Made by a program: the position numbers and the translations under genes. A model generated the notes under the pieces. That model had not been told where the DNA came from. It did not search any database and worked only from the letters and a program-made list of their open reading frames with translations. A DNA stretch of 64,000 bases from a virus: positions 32,001 to 96,000 of IMG/VR virus record IMGVR_UViG_3300021168_000016, one strand, 5' to 3'. Positions within the stretch are counted from its first letter, which is position 1; the number at the start of each line of letters is the position of its first letter. Positions 17,927 to 53,034 of the stretch are shown here, piece by piece.

Positions 17927-18006
17927 TTGCTTTACCTTACCCCACCGGACCTCACCACAACGTACCTAACCCCGCCAGACCTCACCAGACCAGACCCTGC
18001 CGTGTC
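17927..18006 (-). ncRNA. orphan (GGY-NN)x16 pentamer guide-like RNA (VIPR-type)
   Basis: minus strand GACAC GGCAG GGTCT GGTCT GGTGA GGTCT GGCGG GGTTA GGTAC GTTGT GGTGA GGTCC GGTGG GGTAA GGTAA AGCAA. Confidence 0.8.
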
Positions 18007-18015
18007 ATTTCAAAA

Positions 18016-18282
18016 TCATGCGGCCTGTTTAGCCTTGACTACAGCACGCTTCCCAGTAAAATCACCGTTTGCTTCAGATTGGAAAGTGTACATGCCATCA
18101 ATTCCAGTTTGGACTGTTCCATCAAGAGTATGGTAAGCTTTTAGCCGACCTCGCTTCGTCTTCTTGACGAAAATTGGTCGGTAGACAACAGCGATGACCT
18201 CTAGACCGTTAGCATCCTTTTCTCCATGACCTGGCTCGATAGTAAAACCTAATCCGAGCAGGCTATTTGATTTCTCTGCCAT
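18016..18282 (-). CDS. hypothetical protein; its 5' codons resemble the decoded downstream guide
   Basis: AAGGAG RBS and TAGCGGTATA promoter-like motif upstream. Confidence 0.7.
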   Translation of the reverse strand: MAEKSNSLLGLGFTIEPGHGEKDANGLEVIAVVYRPIFVKKTKRGRLKAYHTLDGTVQTGIDGMYTFQSEANGDFTGKRAVVKAKQAA

Positions 18283-49715: not shown

Positions 49716-50429
49716 GATGGTTCGGAGAAAACTGGGGTGCTCCTATCTGTAAGACGACTAAGCACGCGCCAACTCCTGAAGGTTTACCCTGTGCTCATAA
49801 CTGTCAACACAGCATCAGAGAGGGAGATATTGGAGTGCTTATCCCTTATACAGGTCCTCCTTTAGTACATGGGCAATACATAATGGCAGCTGGAATACCG
49901 CACATTGGCTACCACCTCGTCTGTTTCTTTGATGAAATCGGTATACGAGGGAAAACACATGACTGAACACATAGAAAAGATATACGCTCCTTGGACAGAA
50001 AGTGAAGTTCACGCTCTGAATAAGTACCAGGTTTCTGGGCTTATGCATCCATTCACATGCGGTGAAGAACACGGGAGAGAATCTGTTCTAGAAGCTACAG
50101 TAGATGGATGGGTATGTCCAGTGCCCCTTTGCTATTACACCCAAGATTGGTGCTACAGCTGGATGATAAATATTGGAAAGGAAGAGGTATGACGGAAGTA
50201 CATCTTGATGCAATAATGCCAAAGGAGCATGTACAGGAATTTCTGCAATTAATGCGTACATTTGATCTGACACATCCTGACTGTCATTTTGAGGTAACAA
50301 CGAATGATACTAATATGACAGCTGAGGAAGCAAGAGCAATCCTAGAAAAGATTCAACCGCCATTCTCAAGTTTGAAGGAATATAAGGGAGGGAATTCATA
50401 ATTTTAGAGTAGCGGTATATATAAAATAT

Positions 50430-50900
50430 ATGGTCTACTTCATTCAAAGTGCCTGCCCAAAAGGGCTTATCAAGATAGGTAATTCGGATAAACCCTTAAC
50501 CAGGTTGAAAGAACTTCAAACAGCTAATGGTTACAAACTGACATTCCTGAAGATTATTCAGGGAGGTTATCAGGAAGAATTAATCACAAAGAAGAGATTC
50601 AGGCAGTTCCGTGTTTTGGAGGGCGGAACCGAGTGGTTTAAACCAGAAAAGGAACTACTCGATTACATCAAATCACTGGTATTAGAACAGGCATTTGAAA
50701 TGCCTACTACTTACCAAGAAATACCTGGAAAGTATGATCCGAGTATTATATCACAAACAGCACTACTTTCTTTGTCTAGTCGAAGACAACTTTCAAAGAG
50801 GACTGAGATAAGCAATGAACAACTTCTTTCAACGGTGAAGAAGCAAGAATTACCTTCACGAATTGATTTTTCGTTACAAATCAAACTAAGGAGAATATGA
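50430..50900 (+). CDS. GIY-YIG/T5orf172 family nuclease domain protein
   Basis: VYFIQ...IKIGNS..PLTRLKELQTAN...EWF. Confidence 0.8.
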   Translation: MVYFIQSACPKGLIKIGNSDKPLTRLKELQTANGYKLTFLKIIQGGYQEELITKKRFRQFRVLEGGTEWFKPEKELLDYIKSLVLEQAFEMPTTYQEIPGKYDPSIISQTALLSLSSRRQLSKRTEISNEQLLSTVKKQELPSRIDFSLQIKLRRI

Positions 50901-50901
50901 T

Positions 50902-51555
50902 ATGAGTACAGCAGAAGTAATTCAGTTTGAGGAATCTGAATCTCAAGAGATTTCTCTTACAAAGATGTATGAAATCGCAGTAGAATCACTAAGTCCCGTC
51001 GGATTCGGACGATACTATGAACGAGAATATCCGGCAACACCTGTGGAACAAAACAATAAAGAGACGTATGAAGAACGGACTTGGATGAAACGCCTCTGGA
51101 TAAACGAAGACGGTAAAGTCTTCATTCCTGGAGTATCATTCAAAGGGGCGTATGTAAACGCTGCGGGACAGAATATGCTCCCTGATAGAGTTCCAAATAC
51201 TGGGAATAAAGGGACTTACACGAAACACTTCGCTGCTGGTTTCCATGTTATCAACAATGTTGTTACTGAATATACTGAAGCAGATGTTGTCAGGAATAAA
51301 TGGGGAAAGTGGTTACATGTTCCCGCAAATGCACAACGAGGAGGGAAGACAAGGGTTATGCGCTGCTTCCCAACAATCCCAAAGTGGGCCGGCAAACTAC
51401 AGGTAATCACCCATGATCCTTGTTTGACTAAAGATATCCTAAAGCGTTTCGGAGATGCAGCAGGGTTAGTAATTGGCGTCGGTTCTCTTCGTGTCCAAAA
51501 CAACGGAATGTGGGGGCAATTCCGAGTAGTTTCTGTAGAAGAAAAAGCTTTTTAA
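50902..51555 (+). CDS. stand-alone Cas7/Csm3-like RAMP protein (Vipr-like effector)
   Basis: N-terminal beta strand then ESLSP; FIPGVSFKGA resembles the RAMP IPGSSLKG motif; C-terminal Gly-rich loop GVGSLRVQNNGMWGQFRV; immediately followed by the pentamer array. Confidence 0.8.
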   Translation: MSTAEVIQFEESESQEISLTKMYEIAVESLSPVGFGRYYEREYPATPVEQNNKETYEERTWMKRLWINEDGKVFIPGVSFKGAYVNAAGQNMLPDRVPNTGNKGTYTKHFAAGFHVINNVVTEYTEADVVRNKWGKWLHVPANAQRGGKTRVMRCFPTIPKWAGKLQVITHDPCLTKDILKRFGDAAGLVIGVGSLRVQNNGMWGQFRVVSVEEKAF

Positions 51556-51879
51556 GATTCGATGCGATGCAATACGCTGAAATATGATAGGATTTGATGG
51601 AATATAATCTAATCGGATTAGATTTGATAAGATACGAAGTATTTTTATACTGGAATTATGATAGGATCAGATCAAATCTGATGGAATCAAATCGGATAAA
51701 ATAAGATCGAATGTGATCTGAGAGAATGAGATTTAATTTGATAAGATATGAAGTATTTTTATACTGGAATTATCATGCGATGAGATAAGATGTAATATAA
51801 TCTGATACCATCAGCCAAGATCTGTTTTGATGGGACCGGATGCGATATGATACGAGATTTTTCACTTTCGGAGAATCTC
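51556..51879 (+). ncRNA. array of three (RAT-NN)n guide-like RNAs (16, 18, 16 pentamers) with identical 24-nt linkers and terminal hairpin
   Basis: units 51556-51635, 51660-51749, 51774-51853; linker GAAGTATTTTTATACTGGAATTAT at 51636 and 51750; final GAGATT...AATCTC hairpin. Confidence 0.85.
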
Positions 51880-51880
51880 T

Positions 51881-52585
51881 GTGCTACAAGACTCCCTCGA
51901 CAAAATAATCGGAACATACTTTGCAGGAATTACTCGATCAAGTTTTACTTACAAAGACAGAGTCTACCCACCACAAAATCTTTTAGTAAGTCATTTGTTG
52001 TTTAGAGGATACACTTGTCCTGAAAATTGTGGAGGGTGTTGTCCGCGATTTTCTCTGGATTACCTGACCTCAGAGTACTGTCCGATGCCACAAGTCAAAC
52101 TCAGGGAAGTTGACTTTAATGGGAGTAAGATTCCCATTATATCCGATATGCAACTTGATCATCAGGACCACCATTGCAAAAATCTGACTAAATCAAACGG
52201 CAGATGCGGAATTCACGGAAACCAACCATTTTCATGTGATTTTGAATTATGTCGATTTCTAACCTTCAATGACAGAAATGTATTAACTTCCAAATTATTC
52301 GGTAGAGGCTGGGCTTTTCTTCGAACCGATAACGAAAGAGGAGCTCTTTGTGAGATGCTTCCAGTCACTAAAGAAACGATTGACGAAGTCATAAGGAAGC
52401 TGATCCGATTAAAGCAGTGGGCAGAGTATTTCGGCGTCGATCATTGCTTAGACGCTATAATCCAATGGGCAAGATCAGGATCAGGAATGGATCTTCTTAT
52501 CCCGAAACACAAAAAGGTGGGACTAAATATAAAAAGCATTTCCGGCCCGCAAGAAGAAGACCCGTTAATTCAAATAGAGTTATGA
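51881..52585 (+). CDS. YkgJ/CxxCxxCC cysteine-cluster protein
   Basis: CPENCGGCC...CKNL...GRCGIH..QPFSC. Confidence 0.7.
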   Translation: MLQDSLDKIIGTYFAGITRSSFTYKDRVYPPQNLLVSHLLFRGYTCPENCGGCCPRFSLDYLTSEYCPMPQVKLREVDFNGSKIPIISDMQLDHQDHHCKNLTKSNGRCGIHGNQPFSCDFELCRFLTFNDRNVLTSKLFGRGWAFLRTDNERGALCEMLPVTKETIDEVIRKLIRLKQWAEYFGVDHCLDAIIQWARSGSGMDLLIPKHKKVGLNIKSISGPQEEDPLIQIEL

Positions 52586-53034
52586 AAAAACTACCTATTA
52601 GAAACAGAAAACTCCCTAAGAAGGGGCTGCTTCGCAAGAAAAAGGAATTCTGTAAAACAAGCCACCCATTGTGGAATGTTTACTCTAGTATGGACACTAG
52701 GTGTAATAAGGATAATAGTTCCGACTACCGCCACTATGGCGGACGAGGAATTAAAATGTGTGAAAGATGGTCGTCTTCACTTAAAAATGATAAAGGCTTC
52801 TGGAATTTTATAGAAGATATGGGTCCAAGACCTGAAGGTCGTACACCTTCAGGAAAACGGCCTGCTTTCACACTAGAACGTAGAGATAATAATCTAGGTT
52901 ACAGCAAAAAAAACTGCTACTGGGCACCTTGGAAGGAACAAGCCAATAATAGACGAAAACCTAAAAGCATCGCTCAACTGGCTAGAGCCAAAGCGTTTAC
53001 TAATGTTATGAGATTAGGATTCTACGGTAGTTAA
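52582..53034 (+). CDS. HNH endonuclease (YGGRGI type)
   Basis: HPLWNVYSSMDTRC...YGGRGIKMCERW...FIEDMGPRP...TLERRDNNLGYSKKNCYWA. Confidence 0.85.
   Translation: MKKLPIRNRKLPKKGLLRKKKEFCKTSHPLWNVYSSMDTRCNKDNSSDYRHYGGRGIKMCERWSSSLKNDKGFWNFIEDMGPRPEGRTPSGKRPAFTLERRDNNLGYSKKNCYWAPWKEQANNRRKPKSIAQLARAKAFTNVMRLGFYGS

What the first reader, a model, noticed from the sequence alone, without database searches (positions are those of the whole stretch)
51774..52315. Guide unit 3 decodes to a homolog of the downstream YkgJ-like gene
Seen: unit 3 dinucleotides CT AC CA AA CT TT GG CG read as L-T-[Q/H]-[K/N]-L-[F/L]-G-R. The adjacent gene encodes L-T-S-K-L-F-G-R at 52283-52306, so 7/8 residues are compatible, though only 17/32 nt match over the whole unit. 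Inference: as with the GGY unit, the target is a flanking-gene allele in a related genome. This resembles homing or allele competition, where a mobile cassette attacks cassette-free relatives next to its insertion site.
Basis: partly seen in the sequence, partly recalled or inferred. Interest (0 to 1): 0.85.

Follow-up and report, generated by a model that had tools for sequence, protein, structure and literature searches.

The report
VIPR guide aimed at rivals' gene
The third five-base-repeat unit is a guide RNA of a phage VIPR system (a CRISPR-like system first described in 2026), and its code spells a conserved stretch of the neighbouring DNA-modification gene as related phages carry it, not the phage's own altered copy.

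Summary
Unit 3 (51774-51880) is a run of RAT-NN pentamers. Eight of its NN pairs fit LTSKLFGR of the next gene at 7 of 8 residues (11 of 16 bases). In shuffles this happened 1-4 times in 1000.

Homologues fit better than the resident copy. The family motif is LTQKLFGR, and twelve consecutive NN pairs fit DRVILTQKLFGR of the closest relatives at 11 of 12 residues. The one close relative with DNA in hand (L178) matches 22 of 24 bases, against 15 of 24 for the resident gene. L178 is syntenic but lacks the cassette.

The system is already in print. The 217-aa "RAMP" gene is a Vipr homologue (profile hit to the solved SUSP1 Vipr, E 3.8e-12). The arrays are vrRNAs that read DNA by the published rule of two bases read, one skipped (three 2026 preprints).

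The local features are a RAU constant triplet instead of GGY, a dpdM-like (YkgJ-family) target, and a guide sitting beside the resistant allele.

Homing by cleavage is not shown. The neighbouring T5orf172 gene accompanies vipr in 0 of 80 related loci.

This scan has noted VIPR guides beside their targets in other genomes before.

Verdict: a new member of a known kind.

The parts
50430..50900 (+). T5orf172/MUG113 (GIY-YIG-like) ORF of 156 aa. Its stop lies next to the vipr start. It may be an accessory gene or an unrelated free-standing endonuclease.
   Evidence: Pfam PF13455 E 1.4e-6 and PF10544 E 6.1e-5. PHROG endonuclease family at E 6.9e-4. No tblastn match beside vipr in 0 of 80 related loci.
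50902..51555 (+). vipr gene: 217-aa lone RAMP (Cas7-like) protein, the guide-binding subunit
   Evidence: 739 representative homologues at E<=1e-3. The family profile hits PDB 36pp_D 'SUSP1 Vipr protein' at E 3.8e-12. AF2 model pLDDT 93.1. Foldseek top hits are type VII Cas7 and Csm3. It is the only such gene in the 125-kb genome.
51556..51659 (+). vrRNA unit 1: 15 RAT-NN pentamers from 51561, then a tail with a small hairpin. No target found.
   Evidence: No match of at least 17 of 20 bases in 120 loci. No exact 10-NN match in IMG/VR.
51660..51773 (+). vrRNA unit 2: 18 RAT-NN pentamers plus the same tail. No target found.
51774..51880 (+). vrRNA unit 3, the finding: 17 pentamers plus its own tail
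   Evidence: Of the 16 pentamers from 51779, 9 start GAT, 2 AAT and 5 are degenerate (CAT, GCC, GTT, GAC, GAG).
51779..51838 (+). Informative part of unit 3: 12 NN pairs, GA AA GT AT CT AC CA AA CT TT GG CG
   Evidence: Fits DRVILTQKLFGR of relatives at 11 of 12 residues. 300 shuffles reached at most 8 of 12. 22 of 24 bases match in L178.
51854..51879 (+). Tail hairpin of unit 3 (10-bp stem). It overlaps the GGAG upstream of the GTG start at 51881.
   Evidence: Present in both the MFE and the centroid structure. The fold of the whole unit is no better than shuffles (z -0.64).
51881..52585 (+). dpdM-like (YkgJ/DUF3109 family, CxxCxxCC) gene. This is the resident, guide-resistant allele.
   Evidence: Pfam PF03692 at 22.4 bits, just under the cut-off of 23. 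420 homologues. tblastn hits the phages in which DpdM was defined (passages of bioRxiv 10.1101/2023.04.13.536721).
52271..52306 (+). Resident counterpart of the guide's target: GAC AGA AAT GTA TTA ACT TCC AAA TTA TTC GGT AGA (DRNVLTSKLFGR)
   Evidence: 15 of 24 read bases match (62.5%), below the 80% used in print to call a target.

Best explanation
The locus 50902-51880 is a VIPR system: a vipr gene followed by three vrRNA genes whose pentamers carry RAU in place of the published GGY.

By analogy with the solved SUSP1 complex, one Vipr subunit binds each pentamer, buries the constant triplet and presents the two variable bases. The filament then reads double-stranded DNA two bases at a time and skips every third base. 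In a gene, the skipped base is the codon wobble position.

Unit 3 is written in the sense of the coding strand. Its 12 informative NN pairs specify codons 131-142 of the dpdM-like gene as close relatives carry it (D/E-R-V-I-L-T-Q-K-L-F-G-R), which is the most conserved motif of that family. The likely effect is binding and transcriptional blockade of that gene in a co-infecting related phage.

The phage's own copy, 400 bp downstream of the guide, differs at 9 of the 24 read bases. Three differences are Leu/Arg codon-family swaps (TTA, TTA, AGA) and six are residue-level differences. It should therefore escape.

Shown here: the Vipr homology, the repeat architecture, the match statistics, the better fit to relatives, and the absence of the cassette in one relative.

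Inferred: expression and loading of unit 3, binding, silencing, and any benefit in competition.
For: Vipr identity.

Repeat architecture.

The published rule (1-nt skip, wobble-aligned, either strand, at least 80% NN match counts as a target, no self hits at 80% or more).

Match to relatives: 10 of 10 and 11 of 12 residues, against at most 8 in 300 shuffles. L178 matches 22 of 24 bases, and 7 of the resident's 9 mismatched bases are 'corrected' there. In 120 dpdM-like loci (964 kb), 63 ten-NN windows score at least 17 of 20, against 3 in ten shuffles.

Self match is 15 of 24.

Related Vipr loci: 79 of 80 have period-5 arrays. In the arrays beside vipr the constant triplet is GGC in 47, GAC in 10 and other triplets in the rest. 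All 4 loci with a G-loop like this one's (GxG[S/A][L/F]RV) use GAC, so a G-A-Y constant fits this clade.

The same pattern recurs in this genome. The GGY array on the minus strand at window 17931-18000 fits relatives of its neighbour gene at 11 of 12 residues, against 9 of 12 for the resident.
Against: There are no expression data and no RNA run was listed.

Five of unit 3's 16 constant triplets are degenerate, and they lie exactly in the matching stretch. Loading might therefore be impaired. The preprint's Methods do mention frequent internal degeneracy of vrRNAs.

Over all 17 pentamers the L178 match is 26 of 34 (76%), below 80%. The 92% figure depends on treating the first pentamer and the last four as handle or tail.

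No exact 10-NN target exists in IMG/VR.

Only one close relative's DNA was available.

Units 1 and 2 have no identified target.

RAU is not among the alternative repeats named in the preprint's text (NNNGG, YNNNG, NNNNG). Binding of RAU by this Vipr is inferred from adjacency and from the clade pattern only.
Confidence: 0.8

Rival explanations
1. RNA-guided homing or gene drive. Vipr plus unit 3 marks the rival's dpdM-like allele, and the adjacent T5orf172 (GIY-YIG-like) protein, or the HNH endonuclease gene just downstream, cuts there. Repair from this phage's genome then copies the cassette together with the linked resistant allele into the rival.
For: The T5orf172 ORF abuts vipr, with its stop at 50900 and the vipr start at 50902. 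An HNH endonuclease-like ORF follows the target gene at 52585-53034. A syntenic relative lacks the cassette and carries the sensitive allele. The guide lies 400 bp from the resistant allele, which is the geometry of free-standing homing endonucleases (recalled knowledge of T4 Seg/Tev, not from a call). The preprint says VIPR types III-V carry predicted nucleases.
Against: T5orf172 is beside vipr in 0 of 80 related loci (tblastn, E<=1e-2), so it is not a conserved partner. The characterised VIPRs silence without cutting. In L178 the cassette's place is taken by two other ORFs that are absent from this genome, so this is a replacement and not an empty site. No cleavage evidence of any kind exists.
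Confidence: 0.12
2. Self-regulation. Unit 3 binds the phage's own dpdM-like gene through the partial match and tunes its transcription.
For: The guide sits directly upstream of the gene it resembles. Two GGY arrays of the same genome match their own neighbour genes at 19 of 24 and 20 of 24 bases.
Against: The self match of unit 3 is only 15 of 24 (62.5%), well below the 80% level used in print. The authors found no self hits at 80% or more in their sets. Relatives' alleles fit better than the resident at all three loci or tie with it, which is not expected of a guide kept matched to its own gene.
Confidence: 0.05
3. The array is not a guide. It would be a periodic protein-binding or structural element, and the resemblance to the gene would be chance.
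For: The predicted folds of the units are no better than shuffles (z -0.35 to -1.01). Units 1 and 2 have no target. RAT pentamer runs elsewhere in IMG/VR are mostly microsatellites.
Against: The match is 10 of 10 and 11 of 12 residues against at most 8 in 300 shuffles, and 22 of 24 bases in L178. The array adjoins a Vipr homologue, and 79 of 80 related loci show the same architecture.
Confidence: 0.02

Closest known systems
VIPR systems (Vipr protein plus vrRNA); reference is type II of Escherichia phage SUSP1. Sources: bioRxiv 10.64898/2026.04.26.720920 (Results, Discussion and Methods sections 20 and 27 read) and 10.64898/2026.04.26.720927 (abstract, sections 5 and 6 read).
   Same: A lone ~20-kDa RAMP protein homologous to SUSP1 Vipr. 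Arrays of about 100-nt units directly downstream of the gene. Pentamers made of a constant triplet plus a variable NN pair. The target is read with one base skipped, and the skip falls on the wobble position. The target lies in a competing phage. The self match is below 80%.
   Different: The constant triplet is RAU (GAU or AAU), not GGY. At the two G-loop positions that read the guanines in SUSP1 (D177, W178), this protein has S and L by two-step alignment. The tails differ: small hairpins, with no pseudoknot shown. The neighbour gene is a T5orf172 protein. The target is a dpdM-like DNA-modification gene. I could not assign the type because the supplementary figures and tables were not visible.
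Solo (orphan) vrRNAs of satellites and VIPR-null phages, bioRxiv 10.64898/2026.10.15.759431 (abstract, section 8 and passages read)
   Same: Guides are wobble-aligned to conserved, functionally constrained codons. Self-match scores are lower than scores against rivals. This genome also carries GGY/NN arrays far from any vipr gene.
   Different: Unit 3 is not solo, because it sits in the vipr locus. Its target is the rival's version of the gene next door. It is not vipr, a vrRNA or a satellite. The words 'homing' and 'allele' occur 0 times in that text and in the first preprint.
Class 1 CRISPR backbones (Cas7 / Csm3 filaments on crRNA)
   Same: The RAMP fold: Foldseek top hits are type VII Cas7 (E 5.9e-8) and Csm3. 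One subunit binds each repeat of the guide, with periodic flipped bases.
   Different: There is no CRISPR array, no other cas genes and no spacer-repeat structure. The period is 5 on the guide and 3 on the target, instead of 6 and 6.
Free-standing homing endonucleases of T-even phages (Seg, Tev; recalled, no call)
   Same: An intergenic cassette lies next to the gene it targets in relatives, and the resident allele is protected by sequence differences near the site.
   Different: Recognition here would be by RNA. Cleavage is not shown. The GIY-YIG-like neighbour is not conserved with vipr (0 of 80 loci).

Membership tests
VIPR system | Vipr protein: a minimal RAMP (RRM core, G-loop, thumb) homologous to the described Vipr proteins | tested here: met
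   A profile of 48 family members hits PDB 36pp_D 'SUSP1 Vipr protein' at E 3.8e-12 over 161 profile positions. AF2 pLDDT is 93.1. Foldseek top hits are Cas7 and Csm3.
VIPR system | Tandem pentanucleotide repeats (constant triplet plus hypervariable NN, 9-16 per vrRNA) in the intergenic DNA flanking vipr | tested here: met
   Three units of 15, 18 and 17 pentamers start at the base after the vipr stop. The numbers are slightly above the 9-16 quoted for SUSP1-type vrRNAs.
VIPR system | The constant triplet is GGY (YNNGG) or one of the alternatives named in the text (NNNGG, YNNNG, NNNNG) | tested here: not met
   The constant is GAT or AAT, which none of the named forms covers. The text also allows 'a related consensus' shown in fig. 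S17, which I could not see. Ten of 80 related IMG/VR loci use GAC. I therefore read this as a variant within the family, not an exclusion.
VIPR system | A natural target obeying the 1-nt skip rule at 80% NN match or more, gapless, wobble-aligned | tested here: met
   L178 matches 22 of 24 (92%) over 12 NN pairs, in frame with the codons. It is 23 of 26 with one more pair and 26 of 34 (76%) if all 17 pentamers are counted.
VIPR system | No self-target at 80% or more | tested here: met
   The resident site matches 15 of 24. In the six-frame residue-level scan of the genome, no site beats the noise level of 8 of 12 for unit 3.
VIPR system | The vrRNA is expressed as a ~100-nt RNA and co-purifies with Vipr | not testable with these tools
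   No RNA run was listed for this DNA. Promoter-like hexamers lie in the tails of units 1 and 2, which is a consensus match only.
VIPR system | A conserved structured 3' tail | tested here: inconclusive
   Units 1 and 2 share a tail with a 5-bp hairpin. Unit 3 has a different 10-bp hairpin. No covariation test was possible with three copies.
CRISPR-Cas (class 1) | A CRISPR repeat-spacer array and a set of cas genes | tested here: not met
   No direct-repeat array other than the pentamers. Only one RAMP gene in 125 kb.
Homing endonuclease cassette | A nuclease that cuts the cassette-free allele, and a precise presence/absence polymorphism | tested here: inconclusive
   T5orf172 and HNH ORFs are present. 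The relative L178 lacks the cassette but has other ORFs in its place. Cleavage is not testable here.

The most novel reading that the evidence does not exclude
In this phage, VIPR guides are systematically placed next to a resistant allele of the very gene they attack in relatives. Three loci show this: unit 3 with the dpdM-like gene, a GGY array with the UvsY-like gene, and a GGY array with an 88-aa gene.

Each pair would then act as a linked poison-antidote module. In mixed infections it would favour transfer of itself and its flanks into rival genomes, which is an RNA-guided analogue of homing or marker exclusion. Cutting by the neighbouring T5orf172 or HNH nucleases might help.

The GGY guides, which have no cognate Vipr here, would be loaded by the rival's own protein.
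Probability: 0.25. Interest if true: 0.8.

Novelty: new member of a known kind. Interest (0 to 1): 0.45.

Why it matters
This gives a natural, testable VIPR target pair. The sensitive allele is in L178, and the resistant allele lies 400 bp from the guide. The locus comes from a soil phage far from the E. coli and Pseudomonas models.

It also has a different constant triplet (RAU). That could show how Vipr pockets and repeat letters co-vary.

The resident allele shows how a phage escapes a wobble-blind guide. Three of its nine mismatched bases come from Leu and Arg codon-family swaps (CTN to TTA, CGN to AGA). That route is open despite the skip logic, which the preprint presents as blocking synonymous escape.

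The target is a dpdM-like gene of the 7-deazaguanine DNA-modification pathway. This hints that rivals' DNA protection is what is being attacked.

If the guide-beside-antidote arrangement is general, VIPR guides behave as selfish linked modules and not only as weapons.

Tried and rejected
Tandem Repeats Finder and Rfam (50000-53000, E<=1) gave nothing. Pfam gave nothing for the 217-aa protein, and tblastn against GenBank phages found no match for it.

A single-protein scan of IMG/VR for the dpdM-like gene found none. The alignment-based scans found 59, 61 and 6 loci. Only one of them (L178) is more than 60% identical.

My first ideas were a TRAP-like or CsrA-like protein-binding RNA, a standby ribosome site or a G-quadruplex DNA element. 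I dropped them once the NN match and the Vipr homology were clear.

Exact 10-NN gapped patterns of units 3, 1 and 2 found 0 stretches in IMG/VR. This allows no mismatch, so it is weak evidence.

Units 1 and 2 have no hit above noise in this genome or in 120 loci.

Sequencing runs: no RNA holder was listed. One DNA run may be the source of this DNA. A second run held 19% of the sampled words. When laid, it showed only three short identical contigs (151-272 nt), and no joint across the cassette was seen. That says nothing about presence or absence.

Complex prediction, the protein-atlas search and build_rna_model were not used.

Supplementary figures and tables of the three VIPR preprints were not seen (fig. 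S17 on repeat logos, data S3 and S4 on targets and types). They may already list RAU-type repeats, T5orf172 partners or neighbour-gene targets.
Full report
WHAT IS THERE

The window lies in a single 125,421-bp virus contig. states it is a virus record.

Between a 217-aa ORF (50902-51555) and a CxxCxxCC ORF (51881-52585) lie 325 bases with a strict 5-base rhythm. In-phase AT dinucleotides fill 9-12 of 12 pentamers only in windows that start between 51546 and 51791.

The stretch parses into three units of 15, 18 and 17 pentamers. Most are GAT-NN or AAT-NN. Units 1 and 2 end in the same tail with a small hairpin. Unit 3 has its own 10-bp hairpin at 51854-51879. Rfam and Tandem Repeats Finder report nothing here.

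THE OBSERVATION

The NN pairs 6-13 of unit 3 are CT AC CA AA CT TT GG CG. The next gene encodes LTSKLFGR at 52283-52306.

Every other combination of unit, orientation and flanking gene reaches at most 5 of 8. In 1000 shuffles, a score of 7 of 8 or more in either flanking gene occurred 4 times with within-unit shuffling and once with resampling.

The gene has 420 homologues at E<=1e-3 among 514 candidates. In an alignment of 28 of them, chosen by me from the 120 listed, the motif is LTQKLFGRGW. L139, G141, R142, G143 and W144 are invariant.

The guide's one mismatch (CA = Q/H against the resident S) is therefore a match to the family. The match also extends upstream. Twelve consecutive NN pairs (GA AA GT AT CT AC CA AA CT TT GG CG) decode to D/E-K/N-V-I/M-L-T-Q/H-K/N-L-F/L-G-R. 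This fits DRVILTQKLFGR or ERVILTQKLFGR of four close homologues at 11 of 12 residues.

Against the 27 homologues, the best windows score 8 of 8, 10 of 10 and 11 of 12. In 300 shuffles the maxima were 7, 8 and 8.

Per homologue, 13 of 27 beat the resident's 8 of 12, 7 tie and 7 are lower. The best scores belong to the closest relatives.

BASE LEVEL

In 59 IMG/VR loci, all at most 57% identical, the eight-codon core is a perfect 16 of 16 in several, for example L001, L023, L024, L028 and L030.

The one close relative with DNA is L178, a 1223-nt metagenome contig that is 66% identical. It reads GAg AGa GTc ATc CTa ACc CAa AAg TTa TTt GGa CGg. That is 22 of 24 read bases, against 15 of 24 in the resident gene, and 7 of the resident's 9 mismatches are 'corrected' there.

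Across 120 dpdM-like loci (964 kb), unit 3 gives 63 ten-NN windows at 17 of 20 or better, against 3 in ten shuffles. Units 1 and 2 give none.

L178 is syntenic. Its first ORF is 47% identical to window ORF 50108-50401. Between that ORF and the target gene it has two small ORFs with no tblastn match in this genome. The T5orf172 gene, the RAMP gene and the arrays are absent.

WHAT IT IS

The 217-aa protein has 739 representative homologues at E<=1e-3. A profile of 48 of them matches one solved structure, 36pp_D 'SUSP1 Vipr protein', at E 3.8e-12.

The AlphaFold model is confident, with pLDDT 93.1. Its best fold matches are type VII Cas7 and Csm3.

That led to three 2026 preprints on VIPR, Viral Interference Programmable Repeat systems. 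From the Results, Discussion and two Methods sections of bioRxiv 10.64898/2026.04.26.720920, I take the following:
- Vipr is a lone phage RAMP.
- vrRNAs are about 100 nt long, with 9-16 GGY/NN repeats and a structured tail.
- The NN pairs read double-stranded DNA with one base skipped.
- The skipped base mostly falls on the codon wobble position.
- Either strand can be targeted.
- A natural target is called at 80% NN match or more.
- No self hits reach 80%.
- Targets are competing phages and satellites.
- Seven types exist, some with nuclease or helicase partners.

From sections 5 and 6 of 10.64898/2026.04.26.720927: one protomer binds each repeat, two adjacent protomers bury the GGY, and the thumb flips out the skipped target base.

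From section 8 and passages of 10.64898/2026.10.15.759431: many phages carry solo vrRNAs. Guides sit on constrained codons so that escape is costly. Self-match scores are lower than scores against rivals.

HOW THIS LOCUS DIFFERS

The constant triplet is RAU, not GGY. It is not covered by the alternatives named in the text, and I could not see fig. S17.

It is nevertheless in family. Of 80 IMG/VR loci encoding relatives of this Vipr (80 kept of 235 found), 79 have period-5 arrays. For the strongest array beside vipr in each locus, the constants are as follows:
- GGC in 47
- GAC in 10
- GGT in 4
- GTC in 4
- GTT in 3
- other or opposite-strand readings in 11
- none in 1

The four loci whose G-loop resembles this protein's (GxG[S/A][L/F]RV) all use GAC.

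By a two-step alignment, the positions that read the two guanines in SUSP1 (D177, W178) are S and L here. This is an inference, not a test.

The T5orf172 gene that abuts vipr is not a conserved partner (0 of 80 loci).

The target gene is dpdM-like. Its tblastn hits are the Cellulophaga and Vibrio phages in which DpdM, a YkgJ/DUF3109-family preQ1 methyltransferase, was defined, plus a cyanophage copy next to a DpdA-type gene (passages of bioRxiv 10.1101/2023.04.13.536721).

MECHANISM

The most likely mechanism is that unit 3 is transcribed on the + strand. Promoter-like hexamers sit in the preceding tails, though this is a consensus match only. The RNA would be coated by Vipr and would bind the template strand of a rival's dpdM-like gene at codons 131-142, blocking its transcription.

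The resident copy escapes with 15 of 24. Three of the nine mismatched bases are Leu/Arg codon-family swaps (TTA, TTA, AGA). In this genome TTA is 21% of Leu codons and AGA is 33% of Arg codons, so this alone is weak evidence of selection.

The other six mismatches are residue-level differences. Five are residue changes from the close relatives: Q to S, V to N and I to V. The sixth is the Arg codon (AG against the guide's AA), which the close relatives share.

Binding, silencing and benefit are all inferred by analogy.

EVIDENCE AGAINST, AND LIMITS

- There is no expression evidence.
- Five of unit 3's 16 constant triplets are degenerate, and they lie within the matching stretch.
- The 92% figure needs the first and last pentamers to be handle or tail. 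Over all 17 pentamers it is 76%.
- Only one close relative's DNA was available, and its site is a replacement, not an empty site.
- No exact 10-NN target exists in IMG/VR.
- Units 1 and 2 are without targets.

HOMING

The geometry fits homing: a cassette next to a resistant allele, a sensitive allele in a cassette-free relative, and T5orf172 and HNH ORFs on either side. The words 'homing' and 'allele' do not occur in the two preprints I searched for them.

Nothing shows cleavage, however, and the nuclease gene is not conserved with vipr. I give nuclease-driven homing about 0.12. I give the broader linked poison-antidote reading about 0.25.

THE SAME PATTERN ELSEWHERE IN THIS GENOME

Only one vipr gene exists in the genome, yet GGY/NN arrays lie at four other places.

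The array at G000 110083-110177 is read in reverse complement. It matches its downstream UvsY-like gene at 19 of 24 bases, which is the best 12-residue match in the genome. Relatives fit at the Ile position, and the resident fits at the His position.

The minus-strand array at window 17931-18000 matches the 88-aa gene just upstream of it at 20 of 24 bases. A relative (P0283) fits at 11 of 12 residues, against 9 of 12 for the resident.

Earlier notes of this scan describe VIPR guides beside their targets in other genomes. Those are unchecked notes that agree with this reading. They are not independent evidence.

VERDICT

The system is a member of the recently described VIPR class, with a variant repeat letter code and a neighbour-gene target.

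Noticed in passing
window 17931-18000 (- strand) and 18229-18264: A GGY/NN array with no vipr nearby is followed on the minus strand by a hairpin, an RBS and a gene. Its NN pairs match the 88-aa gene just upstream of it at 20 of 24 bases (SLLGLGFTIEPG). A relative's protein (P0283, SLLELGYTIEPG) fits at 11 of 12 residues, against 9 of 12 for the resident.
   Followed up: partly
outside the window: G000:C1:110083-110177 and 110574-110609: A GGY/NN array lies in the 5' leader of a 155-aa UvsY-like gene. Read in reverse complement, it matches that gene's codons LVQAGFISTVHY at 19 of 24 bases, the best 12-residue match in the genome.
   Followed up: partly
outside the window: G000:C1:104781-105075: A multi-unit GGY/NN array. 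The first two units start with TAAGATTTGACA, and the first and last end with GGCAAGG. No self target above noise was found.
   Followed up: partly
window 51624-51651 and 51738-51765: The shared tails of units 1 and 2 each contain TTGATA-16 nt-TATACT, placed so that a transcript would start at the first pentamer of the next unit. The conserved 'tail' may therefore double as a promoter (consensus match only).
   Followed up: no
window 52585-53034: An HNH endonuclease-like ORF (PHROG families at E about 1e-29) starts at the stop codon of the dpdM-like gene. The target gene is thus flanked by two endonuclease-type ORFs.
   Followed up: no
L239-L318 (80 IMG/VR loci): The constant triplet of the pentamer arrays varies with the Vipr clade: GGC in 47, GAC in 10, GGT in 4, GTC in 4 and GTT in 3. 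All four loci with a GxG[S/A][L/F]RV G-loop use GAC. This could be used to map which protein residues read which repeat letters.
   Followed up: partly
L023 8561-8730: A distant dpdM-carrying phage contig has a GGY/NN array with very short units punctuated by GGCAGG, upstream of a clamp-loader-like gene. It resembles the 'staggered' arrays mentioned in the preprint.
   Followed up: no
window 51556-51773: Units 1 and 2 decode to ..D/E-I/M-S/R-F/L-G-I/M-L-R-Y-F/L-K/N.. and ..L-G-Q/H-R-K/N-K/N-R-V-L-S/R-D/E... No target was found in this genome, in 120 loci or in IMG/VR by exact pattern.
   Followed up: partly
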